In this document: in pieces, positions 3,248 through 40,463 of the stretch | How positions within the stretch are numbered: position 1 is the stretch's first letter | Layout of the letters: each line of letters begins with the position of its first letter | Source of the DNA: Candidatus Yanofskybacteria bacterium | GTDB taxonomy: Bacteria > Patescibacteriota > Minisyncoccia > 2-02-FULL-40-12 > IGHO2-01-FULL-4-A | Direction of reading: 5' to 3' | Assembly (NCBI GenBank): GCA_016181175.1 | Contig: JACOZV010000004.1 | Coordinates: 7,718 to 71,717 of the forward strand | DNA: 64,000 nucleotides | Program-made: the position numbers and the translations under genes | Notes under the pieces: generated by a model | What the model was told of the DNA's origin: nothing | The model's input: the letters and a program-made list of their open reading frames with translations, nothing else | The model's database searches: none

Positions 3248-3263
3248 GCCGAGGTGTCTCGGC
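3248..3263 (-). terminator. Rho-independent terminator after the 1231-aa gene
   Basis: On the minus strand, GCCGAGACACCUCGGC is followed by UUUUGUUUUU. Confidence 0.6.
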
Positions 3264-3288: not shown

Positions 3289-6200
3289 TTATTTATAAAA
3301 ATTCCAGAAATTTCCAAAAATATCTAACGCTTTGTCTTTTAACCCCCCCCCCCCCGTAACTTGTATTTCCAAACTGGAATCGCTGAAATTACCGGCCAGA
3401 TCAAAAACTCTGGCAGTTATTTTATGCTTTCCCGACTCAAAAAACGGGACAAGCAACTCCAAAGCAACAGGAAAAAATATTCCATCATCAATCTTAAAAT
3501 AAACAACCGGCTGAACAATTTCCTCGAAACCCACACTGAATTTAAATCTCACAGTCTCGCCGATTTTCACCGACAAAGAACTCGCCTTTATTACTGGCGG
3601 TGCCGGCGGCGTTGAATCAATCATAATTTTGAATTGGGAAACCGGCCCGAGACGGCCATCGGTGTCTTCTGCCTGGAGACGAAAATAGTATATGCTGTCT
3701 TCATCAATGGAGATGTTAAGAAAATTGTCCGAAGTTGAAACGGCTTTGCCCGGTATAAAGTCCGGGGTTTGATTCAACGCATAGTGATAAACGCCGCCTT
3801 CAAGCAACGGCCAAGCCAGCTGAATATCTTTTTTATGATACCAGCGATTGCTGTTGGGATGGCTTGGTGAAAATATGGGTATTATTTCATTAATGCTCGC
3901 GTTGGTTAATCCTTGTCGGGTAATACTGTAAAAAGCGTCACTTGCCGCCCTAAGCACATCGGTCCCCAAGCCGTCATTGGCAAGAACTTGCGTCCCTTCG
4001 GCGAATTTAAGCGAAGCCCCGCCCACAGTTAACGGCTGCACTACAAGCTCGGCTACCGTACCGGACGGTTCGGAAAATCCGGGATTAGGAACGCCGCAAA
4101 CAATTGTTACCGTTCCCGCCGCATTATCAATATCTTTTTCCAAAAAAAGTCCGGGATCGCACAAGGAATTGGCCGTCAAAATATCAACTATTTCAAACAC
4201 GCTCGGGTCATATTTTATTACCGCGCTCACGACATTGATAATTTCTCCACCGGTAAGCACCTTTATGGCAATGTTTTTTTCAACAAATTGGTTAATGATA
4301 TCCGCTTCAGGTTCAAATTTAATCGTAGAATTATAGATAGAATACGGCGCTCTTTCTAATTTTATAGAAATGCGGTCCAGTTTGTTGTAACTGATAAAAT
4401 ACATCACGGAAAATAAAGTCAGGGTTATAATTAAAATAGTTGGAATCCGATGCCTATGATGGAAAACACTCAGGAAAAAAGATAAATATATGAAAATCGC
4501 AAGAAAAGCAAGCGCCATAAAACCGGCCAAAACAATGCTATAGAAATTGTGGCTGGTCGGAAAAAGAATAATCGTTCCGCCGGGGCTTCCCTCAATTCCC
4601 GGAAATACGATATTGCTGACAATGTAATATTCCTCGCTTATTTTAAGTTCTTTGGCAAATTTAGGAACTTGTTTGGCAATTAGGTCGGAACCAACCGAGA
4701 AAAAGCTATTCAGTATAAAAATAGTATCCTTATCCTTTAAGCTTGTGCTGATTAAACCCTCCTCTGGAGTATAAAAAATAACATGCGAACCATTCTTCAA
4801 ATACTTGTCCTGAAACCGTACGGCATAAGAATTGTTAAATAAGTTTCCCAGAACAATAGCGCCGATAACTTTGTCATCTTCTAAAATAAGGGAGTTGCTT
4901 ATTGCGGCCAGGGGATTTTTGACCCCACGGACGATTTCAGTAACCGTTTCACCTTTAGCCACCCGCCTTCCTTGGATAGTGGTTTGAAAAACATTATCTC
5001 CGCGTTGATCCGGCAAATGTGAACGAACAAGCACAAATCCGTCCTTGTCAGTTACGGCAATAAAACTAAGTTCCCTTTCTTTTGCTTCAGCTTGCACGAT
5101 GGAGAGAAGCTCCAGCGTATCGCCTGCCTTCAGGGCATCGTTAAGAACTCCTGAAGAGACAATCTCCTCTCTTTGGTCAGAAATGTATTTGAGTTCCTCG
5201 GAAAAAACAGTCTTTAGTTGAATAATTTGTTTATCAGTTGAATAAGAATACCACAAGCCCAAGAGCCAGTTAGAAAATAGCATAATGATTACAAACACCA
5301 GAATGCTTAGCAATATTTCAATCATCTCTTTTTTGTGTATCCAGTCGGTTTTGCTTTTTTTATTTAATTTCTTTTTTTTACGATATTTTTTAATTAAATA
5401 ACTCTTAACTTCATGCCCAGTAGCTAGAATCTCCTTTTTTGTCGCGACAAAAATGAGCGCAATAATCAAAATAGAGGAAACCAAAAGCCATTCATTTTTA
5501 ATAAAGTTAATGAAGCCGCCGAATATCTTTGTCAAAAAGTCAAAAATTAGTTCGGTAAAAGACCCGGATTTTACCCTAAATGATACTCGGTTAGAATCAA
5601 TAGAAATGGCACTCCTGTCATCAACCGCCTGCGCCGTCACCTCGTGGCGACCTCCTCGTTCCGGCTTAAACTCAACCTGCCAATATCCATTGGCATCGGC
5701 GTGCGTTTCCAGTATGTATTCCGGGTTGACCCTGATGGCAACCCGAACTTTTTGGTTGGGCTTGGCTTTTCCATTTATAGTAATGGTTTCGCCTATTTTA
5801 ACTTGCGGCTTTTCTATTTGATTTAAAATCACCGGCTCTATTGATTGAATCTCCATTTGATAGTCAGATTCTGAATAATTCCCTGCTTTATCAAAAGCTC
5901 TTATGATAATCTTGCGCACCCCTGGCAATTGCAAAGGCATTTTATATAATCCGGCCAACCCCGGTTCTATTTTTAACCAGTCACTCTCACCGATTTTCAT
6001 TTCATATCTATCAATACCAGATGTACCGTCTGAAGTATCAAAAGCGAGTCTGGGTTGCGGGTTGGTTAAGTCCGCCACATCCAATCTGGTTATTTTAAAA
6101 TCTGCGGGTTTTTGGGTATCAACGTTAAACTTAAACGAAGTTACGGGACCTAATCCCGCTGGTGTTTTCGCACGGGCGTTAAAATAAAATTCGCCCTCTC

Positions 6201-6984
6201 CTACATCATCCAGAACTTTTTCTGAAATCGGAGGATCATAGCTTATTATCGGCGGGGAATTGTTTCTTCGGCTCAAAACCAAAATGACCTCGCCGGTATC
6301 TACCGGCAAATCCCATTTGAAAATTGGGTTATTATTTGAATACCACTTTAACTGGTCTGGATGGGTAGACGATGTAATAATCAACTGCTCCGCTGAAACA
6401 GGAGCGGGAGTTGTGACTATTTTGGGCGTTGCTTGAGACGATGCCTGCGGCGATACCGGTGTTACCTTTGGTAATACCGATATTGCCCTTAAAACATAAG
6501 CTCCGCCCGCTAACGATGATAAAACATTCGTACCCTGCCCATCATTGGCTAAAACCGCGCCGGATGAAAAAGAAACTTGAGTAGTTGCCACCGCCTTTGC
6601 CTTGAAGTTTATAGTAAGAATATTGCCTGATGTTCCCGTATATCCAGGATTAAAAACAATGCCGCCGAAATTTATCGTTCCCAGCGCATTGGAAAAATCG
6701 GGTTCTTGCACCCAGAGACTGAAAATAGAACCAGTCCTCGTAAGAGACGTAACCGCGAGTTCAGCAGGATTAAATTTTAGTATGCCTACAGCGGCGTTAA
6801 TTGAAACACCGGCGCTATTAATCCTGATAGAAACACTAAAGTTGCTCCCATTATTATAAGTTCCCGAACCTGGAGATATAAAAAGCGTCGCGGCTCGCGC
6901 TAAAGAAAAGGGAAACAGAAACAAAAGCAAAGAAATTGCTGGAATTGCCCACTGCTTTTTAAATTTTATTTTTAACCCCTCCAA
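3289..6984 (-). CDS. Giant multi-pass surface protein with two cohesin-like modules and a central extracytoplasmic sensor-like domain
   Basis: It has a signal/TM N-terminus and two cohesin-like segments (ILKFNPAELAVTSL...VLANDGQGTNVL and IKYDPSVFEIVDIL...VLANDGLGTDVL). Hydrophobic helices flank a ~200-aa domain (Cache/PDC-like is only a guess). Each cohesin is followed by Ig/FN3-like beta-rich stretches. Confidence 0.6.
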   Translation of the reverse strand: MEGLKIKFKKQWAIPAISLLLFLFPFSLARAATLFISPGSGTYNNGSNFSVSIRINSAGVSINAAVGILKFNPAELAVTSLTRTGSIFSLWVQEPDFSNALGTINFGGIVFNPGYTGTSGNILTINFKAKAVATTQVSFSSGAVLANDGQGTNVLSSLAGGAYVLRAISVLPKVTPVSPQASSQATPKIVTTPAPVSAEQLIITSSTHPDQLKWYSNNNPIFKWDLPVDTGEVILVLSRRNNSPPIISYDPPISEKVLDDVGEGEFYFNARAKTPAGLGPVTSFKFNVDTQKPADFKITRLDVADLTNPQPRLAFDTSDGTSGIDRYEMKIGESDWLKIEPGLAGLYKMPLQLPGVRKIIIRAFDKAGNYSESDYQMEIQSIEPVILNQIEKPQVKIGETITINGKAKPNQKVRVAIRVNPEYILETHADANGYWQVEFKPERGGRHEVTAQAVDDRSAISIDSNRVSFRVKSGSFTELIFDFLTKIFGGFINFIKNEWLLVSSILIIALIFVATKKEILATGHEVKSYLIKKYRKKKKLNKKSKTDWIHKKEMIEILLSILVFVIIMLFSNWLLGLWYSYSTDKQIIQLKTVFSEELKYISDQREEIVSSGVLNDALKAGDTLELLSIVQAEAKERELSFIAVTDKDGFVLVRSHLPDQRGDNVFQTTIQGRRVAKGETVTEIVRGVKNPLAAISNSLILEDDKVIGAIVLGNLFNNSYAVRFQDKYLKNGSHVIFYTPEEGLISTSLKDKDTIFILNSFFSVGSDLIAKQVPKFAKELKISEEYYIVSNIVFPGIEGSPGGTIILFPTSHNFYSIVLAGFMALAFLAIFIYLSFFLSVFHHRHRIPTILIITLTLFSVMYFISYNKLDRISIKLERAPYSIYNSTIKFEPEADIINQFVEKNIAIKVLTGGEIINVVSAVIKYDPSVFEIVDILTANSLCDPGLFLEKDIDNAAGTVTIVCGVPNPGFSEPSGTVAELVVQPLTVGGASLKFAEGTQVLANDGLGTDVLRAASDAFYSITRQGLTNASINEIIPIFSPSHPNSNRWYHKKDIQLAWPLLEGGVYHYALNQTPDFIPGKAVSTSDNFLNISIDEDSIYYFRLQAEDTDGRLGPVSQFKIMIDSTPPAPPVIKASSLSVKIGETVRFKFSVGFEEIVQPVVYFKIDDGIFFPVALELLVPFFESGKHKITARVFDLAGNFSDSSLEIQVTGGGGLKDKALDIFGNFWNFYK

Positions 6985-7003
6985 AGTTAAAATTGATAGC
7001 CTA

Positions 7004-7903
7004 CTATCTGAATCTTTTGTTATTTTTTATTAATTTTTTTGCTCTTCGTATTAACCGTGTTAAAAATGAAAAAAATAAAATAACCAAAAAAGTCGGCGTG
7101 CCAATTGCCAAATATGCAAATCCGTGGGGGACGAATTTCTCAATTCTTGCAAGCCCTACTTTATCCACGGCTTTTATCTCTATTATACTAAACGGATACA
7201 AATGCCGCAAAACATAAGGACTGTCTGCTTCACGCCACTGACCAAACAAACCAAGAGTTTTTTCCTTAACTTCATAGTGGCTAATGCCACTTCCCTTGTC
7301 TTGGGCTGAAAAAACGGCAACTCTGGCGCCATCAAATAAATTCTCGTTTTTGGTTATGAGTATCTCAAACTTTTCGGGCGCATAAAAATCCACAATTCGT
7401 GTTTTGATTATCTCTTGGTCGCCAGCTTCAAGAATATTAACAGCCGCTATCCCCGTGGTAACCGGCGCCTCCTGGCCTCCATCTTGGTGCAAATAAACCT
7501 TAAAATCTTCGAAAAATATCCGAGCTTCTCCTGTTTTCTTGGCCAAAAATGATAAATCAATAATTTTATCTTCCTTATCAGTGGTTGGTCCCTCTCCTCC
7601 GGGTATAATACCTGAAAATTTAATTGTATCTTTTCCGATTAAGGCTGGCCTATCAACCCATAAATTTATCAGCGAATTGGCATCAGAAAAATCTTTATAT
7701 TCAAGCAGGTTTGGGTCAAATTTGATTTTACTTTCTATGGCATTTATAAATTCTTCCGGATTTATCAGAACCTTAACTGAAAAAATCTGACCGGCCTCAA
7801 TTTCGCCCGGGATAGAAAAATATAATTTGGCCGCCGAGGCAAAATTAGAGAATAGTAAGTAGAAAGTAGAAAGTAGTAAAAAAATTAAATATTTTTTAAA
7901 CAT
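7004..7903 (-). CDS. Cohesin-domain protein with signal peptide and C-terminal membrane anchor
   Basis: The N-terminal signal is followed by KLYFSIPGEIEAGQIFSVKVLINPEEFINAIESKIKFDPNLLEY, a cohesin-like pattern. The C-terminus has the hydrophobic helix YLAIGTPTFLVILFFSFL and a basic tail. Confidence 0.6.
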   Translation of the reverse strand: MFKKYLIFLLLSTFYLLFSNFASAAKLYFSIPGEIEAGQIFSVKVLINPEEFINAIESKIKFDPNLLEYKDFSDANSLINLWVDRPALIGKDTIKFSGIIPGGEGPTTDKEDKIIDLSFLAKKTGEARIFFEDFKVYLHQDGGQEAPVTTGIAAVNILEAGDQEIIKTRIVDFYAPEKFEILITKNENLFDGARVAVFSAQDKGSGISHYEVKEKTLGLFGQWREADSPYVLRHLYPFSIIEIKAVDKVGLARIEKFVPHGFAYLAIGTPTFLVILFFSFLTRLIRRAKKLIKNNKRFR

Positions 7904-7930
7904 TTTTGTTCAGAAGTAATCTATCTGACT

Positions 7931-9730
7931 CTATCCGGACCAATGGAATGCTAATATGCTAAAGTCGGCTAAGTTCAAAAGTCCGTCACAGTTCAAGTCA
8001 ACATTAGAACCTTCGGGAACTGTTCTTTTCCACCAGTAAGCCATAATAGAAAAGTCTATTAGATTAATTTTTCCGTCACTATTAATATCGGCGTCGCGGG
8101 AACATTCTTTTTGCGGAACCGCAACGCCGATTCCAAAAGTCACCAGCTGGGAAAAAATGGATTCATCACCGGTTTTTAAAACTTCGGTTTTGGTTTTAAC
8201 AGTATGAATACCCTTCTCCAGACCGATAGTAGAAAAAACCTGTGAATAATCTCCGTTCAACAACGATTTGGTAATATAATCTTTTGGTTCTGATACGACG
8301 CTCACTCTGACTTGGGAATCGGGCACGGAAGACCCGCTAACGGTCAATTGCTCTCCTAGGTTAACGGAGGTTTTATTTAAACTGATTGTCGGCGGCAAAA
8401 CAATATTGGACACTTTTGCGATAGAACCGCTTGTCAAAATTTCCCGCTTAGTAAAGGTTACCGAACGCCGGCCGGTTTTGTCTTGCGCCCAAAATCCAAA
8501 GTTATAACCACCCGCTGATAACCCCGATAAAATAAAGCTGAATTTGCCGCTACTGTCAGCCGTAGTCGCACCGGCATTAGATCCGTCTTTCAAAAAATTA
8601 ATAACTGCCGACGGGTAAGCAAAACCCCCAAACTCCACAGCCGCTGTTGCAAGTATAGACCCGCCGCCGCCACCTCCGCCTCCGCCACTCGAAGCCGGTG
8701 TGGGCGTCGGTGTAGCCGCCGTGGTTCCAAAAATGGCAAATGAACTAAAATTAGCAGTAGAAAAAGTAATTGTTTTATTGGTTGTATTAATTGTCGCTCC
8801 GCTAACCAGTTGCCATGAGGAGTCGCTGGATCCCCAACGATAAGGCGCAAGGGAGCTTTCTGTAATACCGCTTACATCCGAACTGGAATAACTAAGAGTA
8901 ATGGTAGCCGGAATAGAAATGGCGCTTATCTGGTCTCCGGTACTTGGATGAAAAATGTTAAAGTCGTATGTTTTGCCGACAAAGTTTTTTTGGGAAGGCG
9001 CCGGTTTGCTGGAAGCAAAATAACTATTTGGAAAAGAATTTGCGACGAGTTGAACCGTCTGTGTGTAGAAGTTCTGAGGAAAATCAAGAACAGCGGTCGT
9101 ACCGCCGCTGTTGGTTAAAGTAAGAGCATTTCTGGTGGCCACATTAAAAGTAGAGGCATTGGCCGCTTCTGCTATGCTACTTGAGACGGGAGTAACACTT
9201 TTTTCATTAGAGGTAGCGACAACATTGCCCACCCCGTCTTTTGTTTCAATTTTAAAAGTATAATCGGAGTTATTAGTTAAACTTGATTTTTGATAGAAAA
9301 TAACATTCCCTACGTTTTGGCACGAATAAGTTCCGCCTGAAGTTAATTTTGTGCAAACATTATATCCACCAACAGAAAAACCCTGGGATGCCGAAGCCGG
9401 TGTCCAAGAAAGAAAAGCTTCGGCATTCCCCTTTAAAGCAGTATGCAATATTGGAGCTGTTACTTTCGGAAAATACAAAAACCCACTTCTCAAACCAAAG
9501 TTAGTAATTGAAGAACTGCCGATGGCTAAGTCGCCGACCGTTGCTCTCAAAATAAAACTTGACGAGCTTGACGAAGCTGTACCGCCGAAAATCGAATGTT
9601 GTGAGTCCAAAATCCTAAAATTATCGGAAGATAAACTCGCGCCAATAGAAATTTCGGCCGAGACAAAATCAGGGATTAGAAATACCAAAAACAATATTAT
9701 TAACACCAATAAACCCTTGTAATGGCTCAC
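7931..9730 (-). CDS. Secreted beta-rich protein with a C-terminal type-I dockerin
   Basis: It has a signal peptide, FN3/Ig-like Ser/Thr-rich repeats and a Gly9 linker. The C-terminal duplicated calcium-loop motifs DINSDGKINLIDFS and DLNCDGLLNLADFS are the dockerin signature. Confidence 0.7.
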   Translation of the reverse strand: MSHYKGLLVLIILFLVFLIPDFVSAEISIGASLSSDNFRILDSQHSIFGGTASSSSSSFILRATVGDLAIGSSSITNFGLRSGFLYFPKVTAPILHTALKGNAEAFLSWTPASASQGFSVGGYNVCTKLTSGGTYSCQNVGNVIFYQKSSLTNNSDYTFKIETKDGVGNVVATSNEKSVTPVSSSIAEAANASTFNVATRNALTLTNSGGTTAVLDFPQNFYTQTVQLVANSFPNSYFASSKPAPSQKNFVGKTYDFNIFHPSTGDQISAISIPATITLSYSSSDVSGITESSLAPYRWGSSDSSWQLVSGATINTTNKTITFSTANFSSFAIFGTTAATPTPTPASSGGGGGGGGGSILATAAVEFGGFAYPSAVINFLKDGSNAGATTADSSGKFSFILSGLSAGGYNFGFWAQDKTGRRSVTFTKREILTSGSIAKVSNIVLPPTISLNKTSVNLGEQLTVSGSSVPDSQVRVSVVSEPKDYITKSLLNGDYSQVFSTIGLEKGIHTVKTKTEVLKTGDESIFSQLVTFGIGVAVPQKECSRDADINSDGKINLIDFSIMAYWWKRTVPEGSNVDLNCDGLLNLADFSILAFHWSG

Positions 9731-9746
9731 TTGCTAATTTTAACAC

Positions 9747-9773
9747 AAAACCGCCGCAAAAGCGGCGGTTTTA
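9747..9773 (-). terminator. Rho-independent terminator
   Basis: aaaaccgccgc-aaaa-gcggcggtttt lies just downstream of the minus-strand CDS ending at 9791. Confidence 0.6.
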
Positions 9774-9790
9774 TCAACAAATTTAAAATT

Positions 9791-10237
9791 TTACTTATTT
9801 CCTATGCTTATAGGGGCTACTTCTACAATTTTATTGTTATCCGGGTCATAGAGGATGGCTTTTTTAGCATTGGCATACAGCAAAAGCTTGTCGCCCTTTT
9901 TTGCTTTCACGAAGAATTGCTGGTCTTTTAATTTTTCCGGATCTGAAACAGTGGCAACAGTCGGCGTTTCTCCTTCGGGCAATATGATAAGTTTGGAAAT
10001 TTGAGCAACCAACTTGGCTGTTTCTTCCCTGACGATCTTGTTTGGATCTTCTTTTAGCACGGCTGCTTCATTGTAAAAATAAAACGCTAAACCGCTTGTC
10101 GTAAGCGCAAGAAAAACCAAAATGGGAATCAAATGTTTTTTACGCTTGGGTGGTGTTTGAACGGCTAAATCTGTACCTAAGCCTTCGTTATTCATTTCTT
10201 CCTCTACTACAACTTCATTATTTATATGTTTACTCAT
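9791..10237 (-). CDS. Hypothetical membrane-anchored protein
   Basis: 148-aa ORF with one TM helix (LIPILVFLALTTSGLAFYFY). No recognisable motif. Confidence 0.5.
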   Translation of the reverse strand: MSKHINNEVVVEEEMNNEGLGTDLAVQTPPKRKKHLIPILVFLALTTSGLAFYFYNEAAVLKEDPNKIVREETAKLVAQISKLIILPEGETPTVATVSDPEKLKDQQFFVKAKKGDKLLLYANAKKAILYDPDNNKIVEVAPISIGNK

Positions 10238-10296
10238 ATCAATATACTACTTAACTAATTTTTAACTTTCAAGACGACTGTGGATAACTTCTGCTT

Positions 10297-12393
10297 TTAC
10301 TGATTCGTTTTAGGATTTAGATAGCCCTGAAGCTGGTTTAAATAGTTTGTGGTGTCATAGCGGTCCGGATCAAGATATAAAGATTTTTGAAACGAGTCTT
10401 CCGCTTTTTCAAACTGACCAGTCCTGAAATAAGCTAGACCAAGCCACATATAACTCTCTGGGGTTTTCTCGCCCATATCAATCGCGTTCTCCAGAAAAAT
10501 AATCGCCGAAATTAAACTCTGGGGATCATTCTTCCACACTTTAATAGAACCCATATACAACCAAACCCAGCTGTTTTTAGGATATTCGGCCACTACTTTT
10601 TTCAAGACAGAAGTGGACAAATTTTCACTGCCCATTAAATAAATAAACCGGCCGGCAATAATTCTATCTAACACATCATCGGACGTCAGCATGTGGTTAA
10701 TTCTCTCGTTGAGATTTCCAGGAGTACTAAATTTATTAATAACTTCACTGTTCTGAGGAATGTTTCTCAAAAGAATTACTGCATAAGAATCAATATAAAC
10801 TAATGACCATAATGGATCGCGCAAGCGCCTCAATAAAAAACTTCCCACAACCGGACTTCCGTCCCGCAAACTTATAAATATCGCGTTCAGGTTATATTTA
10901 TCCCGCGCTTCAATCCATTTTTCTTCACTTGATAGCGCCGGTATGAAAACATCATCAAAAAAAGAAACAGGATAAGAATCGGCTCCATTGTTGTCAACAA
11001 AAACACGCTCTTTAGGAAATAAGTGATAAATAATATAACCTCCGATATCATAATCATTAAAAATAGGACCTTTTAAGTTATTATTCTTGAAAAATTCTCC
11101 GGCATCATTTGAGTGGCGACCTAATCCAATGCCCCAGTCATTCTTATATCCCCGCGAAGCCGCATCCGCATTCAAATCATAAGCCTTATAAGGATAAACA
11201 GCAGAGATAATGACAACTAAACTATACCCTAACACGACTGCCAATTTTGGCCTTTTTTGCCTTAACCAATTTTTTATCGCAAGAAAAACACCATTAAAAT
11301 TAGACGAAACCGCGGGTAAAAATATAAACGCAAAAAGAGTAATTAATCTAATTTGGTTAAGTCCCGCGACGGCGCTAGCAAGTCCGGCCAATAAAAAGAA
11401 TATCGGTTTGTTTTTGTAGCGAAAACCAAAAATGGAACTAAAAAGAAAAATAAATACCATGGGCGCAAATGGCGAATTGAAAATATCCCACGAAAAAATA
11501 CTGGCTTTCAAATTAAAAAATGGCTGGTTTTCGCTTACCGAAAATGAGGCATAGTGAAATTTAATTTTAAGCGGAGCAAGCGCTCCTTCTAAGCCGTTGG
11601 GGTTGATAAATATTACAGCGAACAGTATAAACAGGACCGAAAGTAATTTTTTAACCACCGGATCATTTCGCAAATTTTTTAAATTTATTCTCCAATCCGC
11701 CAGCCGCCCGAATTGGCGGAGGCGGATTTTGGGCATATATAAAACAACTTTCTCAAACAAAAATCCGGCAACCAGAACGATGCCGAGAAAAAAGAAAAGA
11801 TGAAAATTAACCCACAAAAGCTGAAGCGGAATAAGCCAAAAAATCCTTTTTCTTTCCGGATGTTTTTCCAGGTCAAACAGCAAATAAAGAAACAGGGCGA
11901 GAAAAAGATAACTGAACATTTCCGGCCGTATTCTGTTGCGGCCCGCCAAGATCAAAATAGTCGGCAAAGAAAAAACCGCCACCAACCAAAAGTTAGCTTT
12001 TTTCATTGCTGCAATAAAAAGAATAGCGAAAGCGGAAAGAAGAATCGCGGTTTTTAAAATAGTCAATGCCCCAAAGCCGAAGATTTCGGACACGAGATAA
12101 AAAACAACGCTACTCATCCAGTGATGGTCGTATACAGGATGGTCCGGCACCGTAAAAGAATAGATGTTATTTCTAAATACATTTTGAGTTTCCCAAATCG
12201 TTTTGCCGTCCATAATATACAGACCGGTGTCGTTATCCATGTGCGGCAAACTTATCTTAATAAGCAAAAAAGAGGCATAAAAAGCCAGAATGATAATAAA
12301 AATCAGAATTTTCTTATAATCGGCGGGAATCAAATTCTTCATAAAACATTTTAGAGATAGCGCCAATGACATTGGAAAGTTTTTCAATGTCAT
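10297..12393 (-). CDS. Polytopic membrane protein with C-terminal TPR repeats (GT-C/ArnT-PMT-like glycosyltransferase fold suspected)
   Basis: More than 10 hydrophobic helices are followed by a soluble region ending in TPR-like WLGLAYFRTGQFEKAEDSFQKSLYLDPD. The true start may be an internal Met (12372 or 12342), because the ORF overlaps the upstream gene. Confidence 0.55.
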   Translation of the reverse strand: MTLKNFPMSLALSLKCFMKNLIPADYKKILIFIIILAFYASFLLIKISLPHMDNDTGLYIMDGKTIWETQNVFRNNIYSFTVPDHPVYDHHWMSSVVFYLVSEIFGFGALTILKTAILLSAFAILFIAAMKKANFWLVAVFSLPTILILAGRNRIRPEMFSYLFLALFLYLLFDLEKHPERKRIFWLIPLQLLWVNFHLFFFLGIVLVAGFLFEKVVLYMPKIRLRQFGRLADWRINLKNLRNDPVVKKLLSVLFILFAVIFINPNGLEGALAPLKIKFHYASFSVSENQPFFNLKASIFSWDIFNSPFAPMVFIFLFSSIFGFRYKNKPIFFLLAGLASAVAGLNQIRLITLFAFIFLPAVSSNFNGVFLAIKNWLRQKRPKLAVVLGYSLVVIISAVYPYKAYDLNADAASRGYKNDWGIGLGRHSNDAGEFFKNNNLKGPIFNDYDIGGYIIYHLFPKERVFVDNNGADSYPVSFFDDVFIPALSSEEKWIEARDKYNLNAIFISLRDGSPVVGSFLLRRLRDPLWSLVYIDSYAVILLRNIPQNSEVINKFSTPGNLNERINHMLTSDDVLDRIIAGRFIYLMGSENLSTSVLKKVVAEYPKNSWVWLYMGSIKVWKNDPQSLISAIIFLENAIDMGEKTPESYMWLGLAYFRTGQFEKAEDSFQKSLYLDPDRYDTTNYLNQLQGYLNPKTNQ

Positions 12394-13303
12394 GACCGCG
12401 CGTCATTACGCAAAGAAGGTACGGATTTTTAGGGTAATATACGATACCGCAATCATGGAGTTGTTTTATGCCACCCTCAAACCCGGTTCGCTCCCCGAAT
12501 TTATGCGCTACCGAAATTTCGGGGGGAACCCCAGCTACAATACCAATATTAAAATCTGTATTTGCCAGAAATTCTAATGTCTTTTCTGAAGTTTCTTTAT
12601 TCCTAAAAAATGATGCGTGGTAAAGCTGAATAAATATTGAGGAGTATGATTTTACGCTTATTACTTCGTCACGCTCTCCTCTTGGACTGACAATGCCCAA
12701 ATCTTGAATCGTTTCAGTAAAAACATCTGTATTTGGATAGGCCTGAATTAAATATTTAGTCAAAACAATGTATGCCTTATTGTCAGAATATTTAATCAGA
12801 CGCTTAAGCAAATCGTTTACAGAATAAGATTCATTTTCTTGAATTGATTCTTTTGGAGAAATTAATTGCTCAAAAATCACTTCTTTTGTCGTATGGTATG
12901 TTAATTTTTTTTCGAGCAACTCTGGTTTGTCCTCGGCAAAATTTAAATAGGTTATAAGCAGGGGCACCTTAAGTAAGCTGGCCGGGGCAAAAACGGCATG
13001 GTCATCAATACCCAGTGTCGGACCGCTCACAAGGTCTCTAAAATAAATGGACACATTAGTAATTTCTTTCTCTTTTATTTTAGAATCAATGAATTCTTCA
13101 ATCCTGCTCTTTAAGTCAGCATAAGCATGTTTTTTTATAACAAAAGAGTTATCGCAAGCCAGTTCTTTATTAATAAATTTAAACCTAGATTGATTACAAA
13201 AAAGATTAATATCAATAATATTAAATTTGTTTGCCAAAAATCCTCCTCCAAAAAGAATGAAAATAATAAGAAGGGTATTTGAAAACCTAAACCCAAAAAG
13301 CAT
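12314..13303 (-). CDS. Class A beta-lactamase-like serine hydrolase, membrane-anchored
   Basis: SxxK (ASLLK), SDN (YSDN) and KTG-like (HKFGERTG) motifs occur in the right order, and there is an N-terminal TM helix. Confidence 0.6.
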   Translation of the reverse strand: MLFGFRFSNTLLIIFILFGGGFLANKFNIIDINLFCNQSRFKFINKELACDNSFVIKKHAYADLKSRIEEFIDSKIKEKEITNVSIYFRDLVSGPTLGIDDHAVFAPASLLKVPLLITYLNFAEDKPELLEKKLTYHTTKEVIFEQLISPKESIQENESYSVNDLLKRLIKYSDNKAYIVLTKYLIQAYPNTDVFTETIQDLGIVSPRGERDEVISVKSYSSIFIQLYHASFFRNKETSEKTLEFLANTDFNIGIVAGVPPEISVAHKFGERTGFEGGIKQLHDCGIVYYPKNPYLLCVMTRGHDIEKLSNVIGAISKMFYEEFDSRRL

Positions 13304-13339: not shown

Positions 13340-16300
13340 TTAAGTGTCCGGTGAAGTTTCCGAAAGCGGAGATTCTTCTGACGGAGGCGGCTCTGGCGTT
13401 GCTTGCGGTAAGCTTGTTGAATCCGGTTCAGGAGTTGGCTCTTCCACTGGAGGTTGAACCTCTACTTGAGGTTCAACCTCGGCGGATGGCGTAGGTTCCG
13501 GAGGTGGCGATTCTTCTATTATTGGCTCCGCCGTGGACTCTTCGGATACGGATGGTTCTGATTCTGAAGTCGGTTCTATGCTCGACTCCGGAGTTGCCAA
13601 AGATTCGTAATCTTTTGAAGGAATTGGCGTCGGTTCTGGCTGTGAATTATTGAGGATACTCGGAATAACCGAACACTCACCCGGTATGTGAACCAGTTGT
13701 CCCCTTGTCATTCTTACGCAATACGGCTCCCCTGTTTCGGTATCATAAAACGTAATGCCGTTTGGCCGGTCTCGACTCCCTATGGTTAGCGAGTCGGCTT
13801 TAAGCGCCCCTGAGAAAAACGCATTACCTAAACTGTCAAAGGTAATTACCGGCGGACCAGTGCCTCGCCCCAAGCTTGAAGGACCAAATGAAGTAGAGAA
13901 TGAATCTGAAGCAACATTGAAAATACTAAATACGCCGCCATTGGCCAATTTAAACCCGACATCATCATCCACCGGCTCAATGATGTTCACGACCAGCGTA
14001 TCAGTTAAGACCCGCGGTGAAATAATTTCCAATCCGGCTATTATTCTATCAGTATATATTTCCGACAAAGATGTGCTGGCTGTTATTTCCTGCTTGTGAC
14101 TTAACATCTGGGCCAGTACCAGGCGCCCGATATCAATATCTTCTGGTATCTCATCCATATTGACCCCATATTTGCCAAGAACCGACTTTGTCCTGGCTCC
14201 GGTAGAATATGTTGTGGAAATGAACATTAAGATTTTACCTTGGTCTTCAGGAAAACCATCAGATTGGCTAGCAACACTGACGTCAAAATCTTCCAATGCC
14301 GAACCAATTATTAATCCCGCTTTATCAGTCCTTACTGCGACACCCGGAACATCGGATGCGGTAAGCAAATCGCCTTTTTTAATTTCACCATTTGCAGTTG
14401 AAACCTTAACAAGCGCCGTTCCCGACAAAGCTACGGGTTGGGTATCCGACGGCCTTTGGTCGTTCAGGTCTTTATTCATTATTTGAAATGGATCAGTAGA
14501 GATAACCCCAACTACACGGTCTTCAGGGGTTGCTTTTTTAAGAACTGCTGTTTTCTGGAGACCTTGTTTTGAGTCATATGAGGTGTCATTGGGGCCTACA
14601 GCCACCACATCACCGGGCTCTACACCATCTTCAACCACGAAATATTCTGCCAAGTCGGAACCATTGGTACCCGAAAGAGCCCAGACGATAACTGCACCGG
14701 CTGCTCCGGCGGCACCTTTTCCAAGGTTTGCAGAACCACCGCCTCCAGCGCCACCTGGAGCTGCTCCGATTGTTCCATTGCCATTATGAGCTGAGCCAGC
14801 CCCCGAACCCCCGCCGCCACCCGCACCACCCATCGGACTTCCTCCACCATCGCCGCCACCGGCGCCGGCAACTGCGGCAAAACCTGAACCGCCATTGCTT
14901 CCGCTTAGATTTAAGGTACCGCCAATTGCACTCCCCCCCACACCACCAACACCATTGGCAAGTCCTAATCCCCCGCCATTACCTTGAATATTAGCCCCAC
15001 CATTAAGTGCGCCTGTAAATCTGCTTAAATTTCCAACAACTCCGACGGTGCCACCGGTACCAACAACGATAGACACATTTCCGTTGACAGCCGTTATTCC
15101 CGCACTATACCCACCACCACCACCACCACCACCACCGTTTATCGCCGCAGCATTATTTCCACCAGCACCGCCGCCCCATACTTCCACATAAACCTGATTA
15201 ACATACGCCTGTTTAACCCAATTGCCATTAGCAGTGAAGGCGTTTATAGCTTCAATACCAAATCCCGCATCACCGCTACCAGCAGAGGTATCATCATCAC
15301 CACACGAAAATTTTCCTGTTGTTATATCCCAACCCAATGTTTGGGTATCACCATCGCAATCAACTAACCCCGAACCTCTGACTCCCCCGTTAAAGGAAGC
15401 TGAACCGACTGAAGTAAGGGCGGCCAGAGCGTGAAGTCCTTTGGATATGTCGAAAATGTAAAGGCTTGAGTCAAAGTTGAATCCAGGGTCAGGTCATCGC
15501 CGGTCAAGGTGAGATCGGTGCCGGCGGTAAGATTGGTGTGATTTGATATGTCTATGCCTTGGGAAGCTATGGTTAGGGTTGGAAAGGCGGTGAAAGTTAA
15601 GGCTCCGCCCAGACCGGCTAATACAGTGGCGCCGGCTGAATCATCCCACATGAAGAATCTGTCGGCGTTGGGGTCGGTAAGAGTGGCTCCAGTGCCGCCG
15701 TCGGCTAAAGAAACATCTGTGCCGCCGACTGTGTAGACGTTGGATCCGCCTATTGTAAGGGCGGAAACGCTGGCGGTTTTTATCTCAAGAGTATTACTGA
15801 ATTGATTGGAAGCGTTACTGAATGTCCAGCTTCCGGTGATAGTTTCATTGGCGGCACGACTTGCAGGACCGGTAGTCCAGTCTAATGTGATGGTGCCGTT
15901 GGAAGCGGTATTGCTGAAATTGAACATGTTAGCATCGAATTGTAAGGAAGCGATGGCGAAATATGTGCCGGCGGTTACGGCGATGTCTAAGCCGTCGGAA
16001 ACGTTGCCGCCTGAACCGCCGCCGGTATTCGGCGGAAGGCCAGGTATATGTAACGCCATTGAATGTGGTGGCGCCGGATATTGAGGCCGTACCGCCAACT
16101 TCAAAAGCGGTATTGGTAAGAGCACCCGCATTAATACCCAGTTTTGAAAGTGTTGATGTTAACTCTAAACTTCCGGAAATTGAAGCGCTACTTCCAAAAC
16201 TCACAAATCCGTCAAATGAAACTGAACCGTCCACCTCAAGACCACCGGAGATTAGAAGATCGTTAGCGGAATAAATTGCATCGGAATGAGTCGTTGTCGC

Positions 16301-16834
16301 TGTCCCGAATCTTGAGTATGAAGCCGTAGTTAGTCCGCCGAACTGACCAACACCAGTCGCGTTCAAAAATCTCCCCCCGTGAACCGTCTCGGCGTTAACC
16401 GCAAATCCGGAAGCAACGATCCTTTGCCTGGGTGACAATGTTTCAAAGTCAACATTGTCATCAGACACCTGAACTTCCAAATAATAGGTCTGAGAATCAA
16501 AATCCAAATTTAACGCGCTATAACTGGCAGACGTATCACCAAGTAAAGTATTAAAAACACCTTGAGTAACTTTTATCGTTATCGCAGTTCCACCGGATGA
16601 CCACAACTCATTATCACCCGTTGCCGTAGAATGGATTTCGAACTTGAAATAAAAGTTAGTTCCGTTTCCGCCAAGAAGATTTCCAGAAGCATCAGCCAGC
16701 CGTCCTTGAAAACTTAAAATTTGAGGAACAGCAGCCGAAGAATGCCACGCAAAAAAAGTAAACGAAAAAACCGCAGTAATCAAAAACAGCGTGAAAAATC
16801 TTTTTAAAATTAAAATTTTCCCTCCTTGTTTCAC
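13340..16834 (-). pseudogene. Large glycine-rich, tail-fibre/neck-appendage-like surface protein split into three frames (16834-15929, 16131-15364, 15337-13340)
   Basis: The first ORF has a signal peptide and ends in an out-of-frame Arg-rich tail after ...GVTYTWPSAE. The sense continues in the next frame (PPNTGGGSGGNVSDG...). The third frame is open well upstream of its listed start. The last part contains GSDLAEYFVVEDGVEPGD...RVVGVIS, which resembles a Peptidase_G2/intramolecular-chaperone autoprocessing domain. Confidence 0.55.
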
Positions 16835-39435: not shown

Positions 39436-40398
39436 TTAATTCTCAAACAATATCGGTATTTCTATGGCATCATCATATTCAGGAAGACCCGAAGGATTGT
39501 CTTTTCTTAAAATAAGTGCTCCCCTTCTGCTGAAGTCACCGATATATTCCGGCTTTTTAAATTCAATCACTCCTTCAAACGGAACAAAGTCCTCGGTCAT
39601 CCAATCTTTTTTCGCCATTGCATACCCTTCGGAGATAATTCTTCCGTCCCAATCCGTCAGCACAATTGGAAAACTTGCTTCAAAAAACCAAATACCCCTA
39701 GCCTGGCCCTTCACGGTCAAGGGACTTGAAACAGTATCATTAGCTTTGACATTTTCAACCTTGATTAAGTCTTCCTTGGGACAAAGCGCAAACTCGCAAT
39801 TTGGTCCAGTCCTACCAACATACGATCCATCTGAACAAAGTTTAGCATCCTGCGTACAGAAAACAGTGTCGGGTGTTTTATTGGCTTGCCAAATGGAAAA
39901 ATTAAGATAGGCCGCAAAACTCACCCAGAGAATATATGGCACTAGCAAATATGCCGCGGAATGGAAAATTTTGTAAAACACAACGATTGTCCAGACAATC
40001 GCAAACCAGAGCGCTACGATATCAACAAATGCCCAACCGAGATTATTTATGGTGAGCCATGTCGAACCATGCAATCCGAAAAAAATAATTGACCAGATAG
40101 CATTCAAGAATAACTGGATAAAAAACACCGCGATGGCCATTTTCCACATCCACAACATTCTAACATTCTGCAGAATGTTAGAATGTTGTTTCCAAACAAG
40201 GAAAAGCGCGATACCCATTAGTGCGTAAAGTGTTGTCCACGCCGGCCCAAATACCCATGCCGGTGGGTTAAGTGCCGGCTTTGTGAGTGTCTCATACCAG
40301 GTTGGAATTGCCGAGATCGTAAACACGGAACCAAGAATACCAGCAAGTTCGGATACGCCGACTGCAATGAATAACTTAGTAAGATTATTTAAACGCAT
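39436..40398 (-). CDS. TspO/MBR tryptophan-rich sensory protein fused to a C-terminal Gmad2-like Ig domain
   Basis: LNPPAWVFGPAWTTLYALMG... is typical of TspO. The C-terminal SPLTVKGQARGIWFFEASFPIVLTDWDGRII...FVPFEGVIEF is Gmad2-like. Start taken at MRLNNL. Confidence 0.65.
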   Translation of the reverse strand: MRLNNLTKLFIAVGVSELAGILGSVFTISAIPTWYETLTKPALNPPAWVFGPAWTTLYALMGIALFLVWKQHSNILQNVRMLWMWKMAIAVFFIQLFLNAIWSIIFFGLHGSTWLTINNLGWAFVDIVALWFAIVWTIVVFYKIFHSAAYLLVPYILWVSFAAYLNFSIWQANKTPDTVFCTQDAKLCSDGSYVGRTGPNCEFALCPKEDLIKVENVKANDTVSSPLTVKGQARGIWFFEASFPIVLTDWDGRIISEGYAMAKKDWMTEDFVPFEGVIEFKKPEYIGDFSRRGALILRKDNPSGLPEYDDAIEIPILFEN

Positions 40399-40440
40399 AA
40401 TTAAATTATATCTTAAATCATTTATACGAACAAAAAAACA

Positions 40441-40463
40441 AAACGACACGAAAGTGTCGTTTT
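40441..40463 (-). terminator. Strong rho-independent terminator
   Basis: On the minus strand, AAACGACAC-UUUC-GUGUCGUUU is followed by UGUUUUUUU. Confidence 0.6.

What the first reader, a model, noticed from the sequence alone, without database searches (positions are those of the whole stretch)
3289..9730. Self-contained cohesin-dockerin gene trio without any glycoside hydrolase
Three cohesin-like modules (two in the 1231-aa protein, one in the 299-aa membrane-anchored protein) sit next to a 599-aa secreted protein that ends in a canonical duplicated dockerin. No carbohydrate-active enzyme is nearby. In an organism with a probable episymbiotic lifestyle, this could be a cell-surface assembly or attachment scaffold rather than a cellulosome.
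Basis: partly seen in the sequence, partly recalled or inferred. Interest (0 to 1): 0.5.

Follow-up and report, generated by a model that had tools for sequence, protein, structure and literature searches.

The report
Conserved non-cellulosomal cohesin-dockerin surface operon
Three adjacent genes of an ultra-small (Candidatus Yanofskybacteria) bacterium encode one secreted, non-enzymatic protein with a dockerin plug and two membrane-anchored proteins with cohesin sockets, and the same three-gene operon recurs in at least 259 related species, so it is probably a cell-surface assembly and not a cellulose-degrading machine.

Summary
Window 3289-9730 (minus strand) carries three tightly spaced genes.

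- **A, 599 aa:** signal peptide, FN3, a beta-sandwich, a poly-Gly hinge, two Ig-like domains and a C-terminal duplicated dockerin.
- **B, 299 aa:** signal peptide, cohesin, Ig-like domain and a C-terminal membrane helix.
- **1231-aa protein:** two cohesin modules.

An AlphaFold model of B (pLDDT 93.7) matches almost only solved cohesins. The dockerin profile matches only solved dockerins. No glycoside hydrolase lies within about 35 kb.

The trio is not a one-off. Relatives of B occur in at least 259 species genomes, nearly all labelled Patescibacteria. In 56 of 61 assessable loci the order is dockerin gene, B-type cohesin gene, then a roughly 580-aa cohesin gene.

The 1231-aa protein is a lineage-specific fusion. 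One part is that third gene. The other is a separate family (about 680 aa, 310 representatives) with the layout TM, dCache, 2 TM, cohesin, Ig.

The best reading is a non-catalytic, membrane-anchored cohesin-dockerin surface assembly that displays a variable-headed stalk. Binding and any role in attachment are inferred, not shown.

This is a new variant of the known non-cellulosomal cohesin-dockerin kind. Interest is moderate.

The parts
7931..9730 (-). Gene A: secreted protein of 599 aa ending in a dockerin. NCBI aa and Logan 591 aa, so the start is uncertain by 8-14 codons.
   Evidence: ORF. It is 100% identical to HYT61_03385. The only hydrophobic segment is N-terminal, residues 7-25.
9467..9655 (-). 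A residues 26-88: Ser-rich repeated motif (SSxxFxL, three times). It is conserved in the roughly 450-aa forms but AlphaFold does not model it.
   Evidence: pLDDT is below 50 for residues 20-86. The motif appears in the consensus of alignment A2 and in the N-termini of L005, L013 and L053.
9191..9463 (-). A residues 90-180: FN3-like domain.
   Evidence: Seven-strand beta-sandwich in the model. Homologues carry PF00041.
8726..9166 (-). A residues 189-335: an extra beta-sandwich domain present in this lineage.
   Evidence: Model. It is absent from the 350-450-aa homologues.
8657..8698 (-). A residues 345-358: poly-Gly hinge (GGGGGGGGG).
   Evidence: G351-G356 are at least 90% conserved in A2. pLDDT is low here. 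The hinge is present in all the homologues printed.
8129..8644 (-). A residues 363-534: two Ig-like domains (Big_6-like). Together with the dockerin they form the conserved core of the family.
   Evidence: Model. Big_6 scores 18-22 bits, below its cut-off. BLASTP conservation covers residues 355-599 in all loci.
7934..8098 (-). A residues 545-599: dockerin with two Ca-loop plus helix repeats.
   Evidence: PF00404 scores 29.6 bits on the fragment. The nine best PDB sequence hits are all dockerins and all 13 profile hits are dockerins. The two repeats are near-invariant in 78 loci.
7004..7903 (-). Gene B: small membrane-anchored cohesin protein of 299 aa.
   Evidence: ORF. Identical to HYT61_03380. 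Model pLDDT 93.7.
7430..7831 (-). B residues 25-158: cohesin module, nine strands.
   Evidence: PF00963 scores 24.3 bits. The top 39 Foldseek hits are cohesins.
7133..7363 (-). B residues 181-257: Ig-like (OmpL47-type) domain with the motif QDKGSGI.HYEV.
   Evidence: Strands in the model. NF047446 scores 15.4 bits, below its cut-off. D202, K203, Y210 and E214 are invariant.
7049..7126 (-). B residues 260-285: C-terminal membrane helix, followed by the basic tail RLIRRAKKLIKNNKRFR.
   Evidence: Hydropathy. Modelled helix 260-298. The same feature is found in homologues.
3289..6984 (-). The 1231-aa protein: a fusion of gene C (large cohesin anchor, residues 1 to about 520) with a D-family protein (dCache-cohesin, residues about 548-1231).
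   Evidence: The N-terminal 480 aa match the roughly 580-aa third gene of the other loci. Residues 548-1231 match standalone 676-711-aa proteins end to end. The same fusion is seen in P0125, 1211 aa and 80% identical.
6490..6891 (-). C part, residues 32-165: cohesin module 1.
   Evidence: PF00963 scores 28.7 bits. It shares motifs with the B family.
5605..6045 (-). C part, residues 314-460: OmpL47-type beta-barrel domain (314-372) and Big_13 Ig-like domain (402-460).
   Evidence: NF047446 scores 42.6 bits against a cut-off of 40. Big_13 scores 34.7 bits against a cut-off of 27.
5260..5496 (-). Membrane helix 1 (residues 497-515), Lys-rich cytoplasmic loop, and membrane helix 2 (about 553-575).
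   Evidence: Hydropathy and sequence.
4570..5217 (-). Residues 590-805: extracytoplasmic dCache-like domain.
   Evidence: dCache_3 scores 18.9 bits here, below its cut-off of 25.7. Standalone homologues score 29.7-34.3 bits.
4390..4539 (-). Membrane helices 3 and 4 (residues 816-840 and 847-865), separated by the short loop HHRHR.
   Evidence: Hydropathy and sequence.
3907..4332 (-). Residues 885-1026: cohesin module 2 (D type).
   Evidence: PF00963 scores 20.6 bits, below its cut-off. hhalign against the B family gives probability 96%, E 4e-9. The D-family homologue P0148 scores 26.0 bits.
3340..3867 (-). Residues about 1040-1215: Ig/PKD-like domains after cohesin 2.
   Evidence: This region is a BLASTP duplicate of the domains that follow cohesin in gene C homologues. 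Homologues give PKD and Big_13 hits.
3248..3263 (-). Terminator-like hairpin plus T-run, 26 nt after the stop codon of the 1231-aa gene.
   Evidence: Consensus scan. The number of such sites in the region is no higher than in shuffled sequence, so this is weak evidence.
9750..9766 (-). Terminator-like hairpin between the upstream 148-aa gene and gene A.
   Evidence: Consensus scan. Weak evidence, for the same reason.

Best explanation
The locus encodes a non-cellulosomal cohesin-dockerin assembly on the cell surface.

Shown:
- Protein A has only an N-terminal signal-like segment, so it is exported.
- From the tip inwards, A has a lineage-variable head, an all-glycine hinge, two Ig-like domains and a C-terminal type-I-like dockerin.
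- Protein B and the 1231-aa protein sit in the cytoplasmic membrane. Their cohesin modules are placed outside on Ig-like stalks.
- The three genes form a conserved operon in many Patescibacteria.

Inferred:
- The Ca2+-loaded dockerin of A plugs into one of the cohesins and tethers A non-covalently to the membrane.
- Anchors of different height are on offer: B has one Ig-like domain, while gene C has several and, in other genomes, a conserved cytoplasmic helical tail.
- The two dockerin repeats are nearly symmetrical, so A could bind in either orientation, or to either anchor.
- The variable head on a flexible hinge suggests a recognition or adhesion function. The target could be a host cell, the cell's own envelope or an external polymer. 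A catalytic function is unlikely.
- In this genome the third gene has fused with a dCache-cohesin membrane protein. All cohesins and a ligand-binding-type domain are therefore predicted to face outward from one polypeptide, and ligand binding might modulate the assembly. This last point is speculative.
For: - **Domain identity.** The cohesin fold and profile matches are.
- **Topology.** A has only a signal-like segment. B and the C homologues have a signal plus a membrane helix. The 1231-aa protein has a signal plus four helices, with Lys-rich and HHRHR loops where the positive-inside rule predicts cytoplasm.
- **Non-enzymatic cargo.** The model of A is a chain of beta-sandwiches. Its 50 best PDB matches include no enzyme and are almost all tandem FN3/Ig arrays such as contactin, fibronectin, titin and the adhesin SiiE, plus an S-layer protein and a phage tail-tip protein.
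- **Linkage.** Relatives of B occur in 259 species genomes. The dockerin gene is immediately upstream in 65 of 68 assessable loci; the other three have an extra cohesin paralogue in between. The large cohesin gene is immediately downstream in 67 of 70. The strict trio occurs in 56 of 61.
- **A second, diverged pair.** Locus L004 has another adjacent dockerin-cohesin gene pair in which both partners have diverged.
- **Conserved surfaces.** The dockerin repeats are near-invariant: D-L-N-x-D-G-R/K-V-N-L-V-D-F-S-I-A-A-Y-W. Of the 13 positions of the B cohesin that are at least 90% conserved, 12 lie on model strands 3, 5, 6 and 8. In solved complexes those strands form the dockerin-binding sheet (established knowledge: Carvalho et al. 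2003). The same motifs recur in the C and D cohesins.
- **Precedent.** Non-cellulosomal archaeal cohesin-dockerin pairs do bind each other, and such pairs have been proposed to attach proteins to cell surfaces in syntrophic ANME archaea (PMC9012536).
Against: - No binding data exist and no complex model could be made.
- Two of the modules score close to or below Pfam thresholds when taken alone. B scores 24.3 bits against a cut-off of 24.1, and cohesin 2 scores 20.6 bits.
- B of this window has a degenerate copy (HQDGGQE) of the NDGxGT motif that is near-invariant in its family, so it may bind weakly or not at all.
- Only 64 kb of the genome is visible. Dockerin-bearing enzymes could be encoded elsewhere.
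- Conserved synteny shows functional linkage but not physical contact.
- The adhesion role rests only on architecture.
Confidence: 0.65

Rival explanations
1. It is a minimal cellulosome or other enzyme-display scaffold. The cohesins would mainly dock hydrolases (glycosidases, peptidoglycan hydrolases, proteases) that carry the same dockerin and are encoded elsewhere in the genome. Protein A would be only one of many clients.
For: - There are three or four cohesins for one visible dockerin, and only 64 kb of the genome is visible.
- L004 has a second dockerin protein of 800 aa with a faint MG2 hit.
- Weak dockerin-only hits of A include proteins with other domains, P0122-P0124.
- CPR cohesin and dockerin proteins have been read as a cellulosome before (bioRxiv 10.1101/2021.08.21.457207).
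Against: - No glycoside hydrolase or other secreted enzyme was found by Pfam in the ORFs tested out to position 42584.
- The client whose gene is conserved next to the cohesin genes is always non-catalytic.
- There is no CBM, no SLH domain and no multi-cohesin scaffoldin.
- The search with the dockerin profile returned only short fragments, so it neither supports nor excludes other clients.
Confidence: 0.15
2. The three proteins are co-expressed envelope components, for example parts of a surface layer or wall-spanning structure, that do not interact through a cohesin-dockerin contact. The cohesin-like modules would be plain structural beta-sandwiches, and the dockerin-like module would be a Ca2+-binding stabiliser or would bind something else.
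For: - Sequence identity to characterised cohesins is only 10-18%.
- Several Pfam scores are borderline.
- A class A beta-lactamase-like protein, a 10-helix TPR membrane protein and a small membrane protein recur nearby. This points to an envelope context.
Against: - Both partner modules are conserved together in nearly every locus.
- Conservation is concentrated on the canonical binding sheet of the cohesin and along both repeats of the dockerin, Ca loops and following helices alike.
- The pair in L004 diverged on both sides.
Confidence: 0.15
3. It is a signalling device. The dockerin of A would bridge the B and C anchors, or the dCache-linked cohesin. Ligand binding or host contact would then be transmitted through the conserved cytoplasmic tail of gene C.
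For: - Gene C homologues carry a conserved cytoplasmic helical tail of about 85 aa.
- The D family joins a dCache domain to a cohesin.
- The dockerin repeats are symmetrical.
- One D gene lies next to a 7TM histidine kinase.
Against: - No output domain is recognisable.
- The tail is missing in this window's fusion protein.
- The gene context of the D family is not conserved.
- To my knowledge, simultaneous binding of two cohesins by one dockerin is not an established mode.
Confidence: 0.05

Closest known systems
Non-cellulosomal cohesin-dockerin proteins of Archaeoglobus fulgidus (cohesin structure 2xdh; Bayer et al. 1999, Haimovitz et al. 2008, Peer et al. 2009, as cited in PMC9012536)
   Same: - A few cohesins and one dockerin are present in an organism that does not degrade cellulose, with no glycoside hydrolase attached.
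- 2xdh is among the best structural matches of protein B (target TM 0.78).
- Binding between the archaeal modules has been verified (PMC9012536).
   Different: - Here the cohesins sit on membrane-helix-anchored proteins.
- The genes form a fixed three-gene operon conserved across hundreds of Patescibacteria.
- The dockerin carrier is an Ig/FN3 stalk with a poly-Gly hinge.
- That the A. fulgidus modules lie on adjacent genes is my recollection and was not checked here.
Cellulosome anchoring scaffoldins of Clostridia (for example C. thermocellum OlpC/SdbA; type I and II cohesin-dockerin complexes such as 4dh2 and 2b59)
   Same: A cell-bound protein presents a cohesin that captures a dockerin-bearing partner. 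The cohesin fold is type-I-like (4dh2 target TM 0.72). The dockerin is a duplicated Ca-binding module.
   Different: - There is no SLH or sortase anchor, no CBM and no enzyme client.
- There is no scaffoldin with tandem cohesins that assembles many subunits.
- The stoichiometry appears inverted, with several cohesins for one dockerin.
Clostridium perfringens toxin/glycosidase complexes (cohesin plus FN3 of GH84C, 2w1n; cohesins 2jh2 and 2vo8; dockerin 2jnk/2ozn) and the Ruminococcus bromii amylosome (Amy12 dockerin, 9qfa)
   Same: Cohesin-dockerin pairs are used outside cellulose degradation. 2w1n is the best Foldseek hit of protein B, E 3.7e-11. 2jnk and 9qfa are hit by the dockerin profile.
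   Different: In those systems the modules join secreted enzymes to each other or to the cell. Here no enzyme is involved in the conserved operon.
Dockerin and cohesin proteins noted in other uncultivated or symbiotic lineages: ANME archaea (PMC9012536), Omnitrophota giant proteins (PMC10066038), Ca. Shapirobacterales (bioRxiv 10.1101/2021.08.21.457207) and the essential envelope protein SEML1_0315 of the saccharibacterium Southlakia epibionticum (PMC10633639)
   Same: Non-cellulosomal cohesin and dockerin modules on surface proteins of host- or partner-dependent microbes. The proposed roles are adhesion or surface attachment. SEML1_0315 is likewise made of Ig/FN3-type domains.
   Different: - None of these reports describes a conserved dockerin-cohesin-cohesin operon.
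- SEML1_0315 is not flanked by cohesin genes, and the word 'cohesin' is absent from that paper's annotation tables.
- Homology of SEML1_0315 to protein A was not tested.

Membership tests
Cohesin (Pfam PF00963) | Profile score at or above the curated cut-off of 24.1 bits. | tested here: met
   - The whole 1231-aa protein scores 38.7 bits, and its module 1 alone scores 28.7 bits.
- B scores 24.3 bits.
- Module 2 alone scores 20.6 bits, below the cut-off. It is still homologous to the B family (hhalign 96%, E 4e-9), and its family member P0148 scores 26.0 bits.
Cohesin (Pfam PF00963) | Nine-stranded beta-sandwich (jelly-roll) fold. | tested here: met
   The model of B has pLDDT 93.7 and nine strands between residues 25 and 158. 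Its top 39 Foldseek PDB hits are cohesins, with target TM up to 0.79 and rmsd 2.2. The two modules of the 1231-aa protein were not modelled.
Cohesin (Pfam PF00963) | Binds a cognate dockerin. | not testable with these tools
   Only indirect support is available: conserved operon linkage and conservation on strands 3, 5, 6 and 8.
Dockerin type I (Pfam PF00404) | Profile score at or above the curated cut-off of 22.9 bits. | tested here: met
   The full-length protein scores 22.6 bits, just below the cut-off. The C-terminal 244 aa score 29.6 bits. Most homologues carry PF00404. The family profile hits only PDB dockerins, best 7.9e-11.
Dockerin type I (Pfam PF00404) | Two tandem segments, each an EF-hand-like Ca2+ loop (D1, N3, D5, D12) followed by a helix. 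| tested here: met
   The loops are DINSDGKINLID and DLNCDGLLNLAD. Helices are modelled at 557-565 and 587-598. The pattern is near-invariant in 78 loci. The exception is the first Asp of loop 2, present in only 35 of 78.
Dockerin type I (Pfam PF00404) | Ca2+-dependent binding to a cohesin. | not testable with these tools
   No experiment and no complex prediction was available.
Cellulosome | Dockerin-bearing glycoside hydrolases or other plant-cell-wall enzymes. | tested here: not met
   The only dockerin in the 64 kb window is on a non-catalytic Ig/FN3 protein. Pfam finds no glycoside hydrolase in the ORFs tested out to position 42584. The rest of the genome was not visible.
Cellulosome | Scaffoldin with tandem cohesins and a carbohydrate-binding module, anchored by SLH domains or sortase. 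| tested here: not met
   No CBM, SLH domain or LPXTG motif was found. The cohesins are single modules on proteins anchored by membrane helices. The two in the 1231-aa protein are separated by four helices and a dCache-like domain.
dCache sensor domains (Pfam PF14827, dCache_3) | Profile score at or above 25.7 bits, in an extracytoplasmic position between membrane helices. | tested here: inconclusive
   The window protein scores 18.9 bits, below the cut-off. Standalone homologues of the same region score 34.3, 34.0 and 29.7 bits. The region is flanked by hydrophobic helices.

The most novel reading that the evidence does not exclude
The dockerin-cohesin-cohesin operon is a core, lineage-defining surface organelle of many Patescibacteria. 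It would be a modular, non-covalent tether that presents rapidly diversifying recognition heads (a Cys-rich module, or a Ser-rich motif plus FN3) for attachment to host cells. dCache-linked cohesins would let small-molecule cues control which anchors are occupied. If so, it would give a concrete and experimentally tractable molecular handle on how uncultivated CPR bacteria recognise and hold on to their hosts.
Probability: 0.15. Interest if true: 0.75.

Novelty: new variant of a known kind. Interest (0 to 1): 0.5.

Why it matters
Most CPR/Patescibacteria are thought to live attached to other cells, yet the molecules that mediate contact are largely unknown outside a few cultivated Saccharibacteria.

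This locus offers three things:
- A compact three-gene module kept in hundreds of very small genomes.
- Partners that are easy to express and test, since cohesin and dockerin binding assays are routine.
- A head region that varies between lineages, which makes it a plausible candidate for surface recognition.

It also bears on annotation. Counting cohesin and dockerin hits as 'cellulosome' or CAZyme capacity in metagenome surveys of CPR genomes is probably wrong for this family.

Finally, the dCache-cohesin family (310 cluster representatives) combines a sensor-type domain with a protein-docking module. I did not find it described in the literature I could search.

Tried and rejected
- **Other clients of the cohesins.** Searching the large protein collection with the dockerin profile returned only short fragments of 102 aa or less, so it says nothing about client diversity.
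- **Complex prediction.** I considered folding a linker-fused cohesin-dockerin chimera. I did not try it, because the structure tool returns no contacts or PAE and accepts only window or database sequences. The two structure jobs went to B and A instead.
- **Gene context of the standalone dCache-cohesin family.** The context is not conserved and not next to the trio. A histidine kinase neighbour was seen only once.
- **Family HMM of the dCache-cohesin proteins against the 85 loci.** Apart from the window's own organism (L001), only one Cache-bearing ORF appeared (L034, 1-1080). The many short matches are to membrane helices.
- **SEML1_0315 of Southlakia.** This essential dockerin-domain protein is flanked by a tRNA gene and a hydrolase gene, not by cohesins. 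It is a precedent, not a demonstrated homologue.
- **Literature searches.** Searches combined cohesin and dockerin with CPR, Patescibacteria, Parcubacteria, DPANN and episymbiont. None turned up a description of this operon. Peer et al. 2009 (PMC3035643) is not held.
- **Promoter and terminator scan.** Hairpins flank the trio, but the number of such sites is no higher than in shuffled sequence. This is only weak support for a separate transcript.
- **GC content of oddly labelled contigs.** For contigs labelled 'Gammaproteobacteria', 'Nitrospira' or 'Methylomirabilis', GC content does not settle whether they are mis-binned CPR contigs.

Full report
**Observation**

Window 3289-9730 holds three co-directional minus-strand ORFs separated by 27 and 19 nt: 7931-9730 (599 aa, 'A'), 7004-7903 (299 aa, 'B') and 3289-6984 (1231 aa). 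B is identical to NCBI protein HYT61_03380 of a Candidatus Yanofskybacteria metagenome-assembled genome. A is identical to HYT61_03385. The organism is therefore a Candidate Phyla Radiation (Patescibacteria) bacterium. The flanks are housekeeping genes: rpsB, a short tsf and tRNAs downstream, and RF2, L25 and tgt upstream.

**Domain checks: cohesins**

- Pfam Cohesin has a cut-off of 24.1 bits. The 1231-aa protein scores 38.7 bits in two stretches, and B scores 24.3 bits.
- Scored separately, cohesin 1 of the large protein reaches 28.7 bits and cohesin 2 reaches 20.6 bits.
- Cohesin 2 aligns to the B family profile with hhalign probability 96%, E 4e-9.
- An AlphaFold2 model of B, built on 59 homologues, has mean pLDDT 93.7. 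It shows a signal helix, nine strands (residues 25-158), a second beta domain (181-257) and a C-terminal helix (260-298).
- The 39 best Foldseek PDB matches of this model are all cohesins.
  - The top hit is the C. perfringens cohesin-FN3 pair 2w1n, E 3.7e-11.
  - The best single-domain superpositions are CaCohA2 6kgc_A (target TM 0.79, rmsd 2.2) and the non-cellulosomal A. fulgidus cohesin 2xdh (TM 0.78).
  - Type II cohesins fit less well, with TM about 0.5.

**Domain checks: dockerin**

- Full-length A scores 22.6 bits against a cut-off of 22.9. The C-terminal 244 aa alone score 29.6 bits.
- The module has two canonical loops, DINSDGKINLID and DLNCDGLLNLAD, each followed by a modelled helix.
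- By sequence, its nine best PDB matches are all dockerins, best 1.7e-5.
- A profile of 29 family dockerins hits 13 PDB entries, all dockerins or dockerin-bearing enzymes, best 7.9e-11.
- This is the only dockerin motif in any frame of the 64 kb window.

**Anatomy of A**

The model (pLDDT 83) has these parts:
- a signal segment;
- an unmodelled Ser-rich repeat region (residues 20-86);
- FN3 (90-180);
- a further beta-sandwich (189-335);
- a Gly9 hinge (345-358);
- two Ig-like domains (363-444 and 461-534);
- the dockerin.

Foldseek returns no enzyme among its 50 best matches. Nearly all are tandem FN3/Ig arrays (contactins, fibronectin, titin, the adhesin SiiE), together with an S-layer protein and a phage tail-tip protein.

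Across homologues the conserved core is the hinge, Ig, Ig and dockerin. The head varies. Forms of about 350 aa have a Cys-rich module. Forms of about 450 aa have the Ser-rich motif plus FN3. The window protein has one more domain.

**Anatomy of the 1231-aa protein**

Hydropathy gives a signal segment and four internal helices. The N-terminal half contains cohesin 1, an OmpL47-type barrel (NF047446, 42.6 bits against a cut-off of 40) and a Big_13 domain (34.7 bits against 27). Helix 1 follows at residues 497-515.

The order after that is:
- a Lys-rich loop;
- helix 2;
- a dCache-like domain (590-805; 18.9 bits here);
- helices 3 and 4, around the loop HHRHR;
- cohesin 2 (885-1026);
- two more Ig-like domains.

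With basic loops placed inside the cell, both cohesins and the Cache-like domain face outward. This topology is inferred from the positive-inside rule.

**The trio is a conserved operon**

- Profile-guided scanning of 185,579 species genomes found 259 that encode a relative of B. The 80 best are mostly labelled as Patescibacteria lineages: Yanofsky-, Wolfe-, Jorgensen-, Brenner-, Lipton-, Nomura-, Magasanik-, Komeili-, Falkow-, Uhr- and Doudnabacteria.
- Some loci carry other labels that may be binning or naming errors. GC content does not settle this.
- I ran BLASTP of the window proteins against all ORFs of the 85 loci and counted gene order.
  - A dockerin-ended gene lies immediately upstream of the B homologue in 65 of 68 assessable loci. 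The other three have an extra cohesin paralogue in between.
  - A homologue of the first 480 residues of the large protein lies immediately downstream in 67 of 70.
  - The strict trio is present in 56 of 61.
- The architecture is uniform. Dockerin proteins have only a signal segment. B homologues have a signal plus a C-terminal helix. Third-gene homologues (about 580 aa) have a signal, a helix near residue 480-500, and a conserved helical cytoplasmic tail of about 85 aa.
- L004 carries a second adjacent dockerin-cohesin gene pair in which both modules have diverged.
- A class A beta-lactamase-like gene, a 10-helix TPR membrane protein and the 148-aa membrane protein recur near the trio in a minority of loci.

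**The large protein is a fusion**

Residues 520-900 have no counterpart in the other loci. An exhaustive HMMER search of that region found 310 cluster representatives. Nearly all are 650-710 aa, and the region sits at their N-terminus.

These proteins have the layout TM, dCache_3 (29.7-34.3 bits, above the cut-off), 2 TM, cohesin, PKD/Ig. They match window residues 548-1231 end to end at 28-53% identity. Their genes are not next to the trio, and their context is not conserved.

Only P0125 (1211 aa, 80% identical) shares the fusion. The fusion is therefore real but young. It replaced the conserved cytoplasmic tail of the third gene.

**Conserved surfaces**

- In 78 dockerins both repeats are near-invariant. 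Repeat 1 reads D-L-N-x-D-G-R/K-V-N-L-V-D-F-S-I-A-A-Y-W. Repeat 2 ends D-F-S-I-M-A-Y/F-Y-W-T-G. The two repeats are highly symmetrical.
- In the B family, 12 of the 13 cohesin-domain positions that are at least 90% conserved lie on model strands 3, 5, 6 and 8. They are N54, W82, P86, F96-G103 and G125. In solved complexes that sheet contacts the dockerin (established knowledge: Carvalho et al. 2003). My strand numbering is by order in the model.
- The same motifs, plus L-A/L-N-D-G-x-G-T, are shared by the B-, C- and D-type cohesins. B of this window has a degenerate copy, HQDGGQE.

**Interpretation**

- *Shown:* the domain identities, the extracytoplasmic placement, the non-catalytic cargo and the conserved operon.
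- *Inferred:* the dockerin of A docks onto one or more of the membrane-anchored cohesins. This would give a non-covalent surface assembly whose variable head, held on a glycine hinge, serves recognition or adhesion.
- *Rivals:*
  - an enzyme-display scaffold whose clients are encoded elsewhere;
  - co-expressed envelope proteins that make no cohesin-dockerin contact;
  - a trans-membrane signalling device.

None of the rivals is excluded. The first is weakened by the consistently non-enzymatic, operon-encoded client. The second is weakened by the pattern of conservation.

**Comparison with what is known**

Non-cellulosomal cohesin and dockerin modules are known in all three domains of life (Peer et al. 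2009, cited in PMC10066038 and PMC9012536). Archaeal pairs have been shown to bind. In ANME archaea they were proposed to attach proteins to the cell surface (PMC9012536).

In CPR, cohesin and dockerin proteins have been mentioned in passing:
- as a cellulosome in Shapirobacterales;
- as an essential dockerin-domain envelope protein in Southlakia (PMC10633639). That protein is not flanked by cohesin genes.

I found no description of the conserved dockerin-cohesin-cohesin operon or of the dCache-cohesin family. The library searched is incomplete, so this is absence of evidence only.

**Verdict**

I classify the locus as a new variant of a known kind: a non-cellulosomal cohesin-dockerin system that is membrane-helix anchored, operon-encoded and widespread in Patescibacteria. 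Interest is 0.5.

Noticed in passing
window 13340-16834 (minus strand): Three ORFs (301, 255 and 665 aa) look like one large Gly-rich fibre protein broken by frame changes. Two of them overlap. The 301-aa ORF ends in an Arg-rich, out-of-frame-looking tail. Its N-terminus weakly matches the Bdellovibrio 'mosaic adhesive trimer' fibre N-domain (NF053851, 38 bits against a cut-off of 60). The block has a higher GC content, 0.50. The 665-aa ORF resembles part of a 2162-aa protein next to the trio in L005.
   Followed up: partly
window 9791-13303 (minus strand): A 148-aa single-pass membrane protein, a 698-aa protein with about 10 membrane helices plus C-terminal TPR repeats, and a class A beta-lactamase-like protein lie upstream of the trio. 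Homologues of each recur within a few kb of the trio in a minority of other loci, for example L019, L053 and L058.
   Followed up: partly
window 59144-59260 (minus strand): A full-length match to the Rfam LOOT RNA motif (RF03000, 71.1 bits against a gathering score of 46.4).
   Followed up: no
proteins P0029, P0033, P0043, P0048, P0061; loci L023 6792-8060 and L047 7596-8870: Some B homologues are called as proteins of about 420-450 aa. Their N-terminus is a complete 23S-rRNA-IVS/bAvd-like four-helix-bundle domain or a PDDEXK_3 nuclease domain. Most likely small mobile or selfish ORFs inserted between the dockerin and cohesin genes have been merged with B in gene calling.
   Followed up: partly
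L004 17583-20879: A second adjacent dockerin-cohesin gene pair in the same genome. It consists of an 800-aa dockerin protein with a faint MG2 hit and a B-like cohesin protein. Both the dockerin helix residues and the cohesin motifs have diverged.
   Followed up: partly
C-termini of gene-3 homologues, e.g. L004 10880-12616, L021 8888-10630, L037 8848-10578: A conserved cytoplasmic helical tail of about 85 aa (motif ...MLEKTKTKRELTEEEE...) follows the membrane helix. It is absent from the window's fused 1231-aa protein.
   Followed up: no
window 8657-8698 and homologues: A run of 8-16 consecutive glycines is nearly invariant in the dockerin proteins, just before the Ig-Ig-dockerin core. Many dockerins also carry one or two conserved cysteines in or just before the first Ca loop.
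   Followed up: no
window 39436-40449 (minus strand) and 28823-31504 (minus strand): A TspO/MBR membrane protein is fused to a Gmad2 Ig-like domain. Separately, there is a class II ribonucleotide reductase with a TSCPD domain.
   Followed up: no
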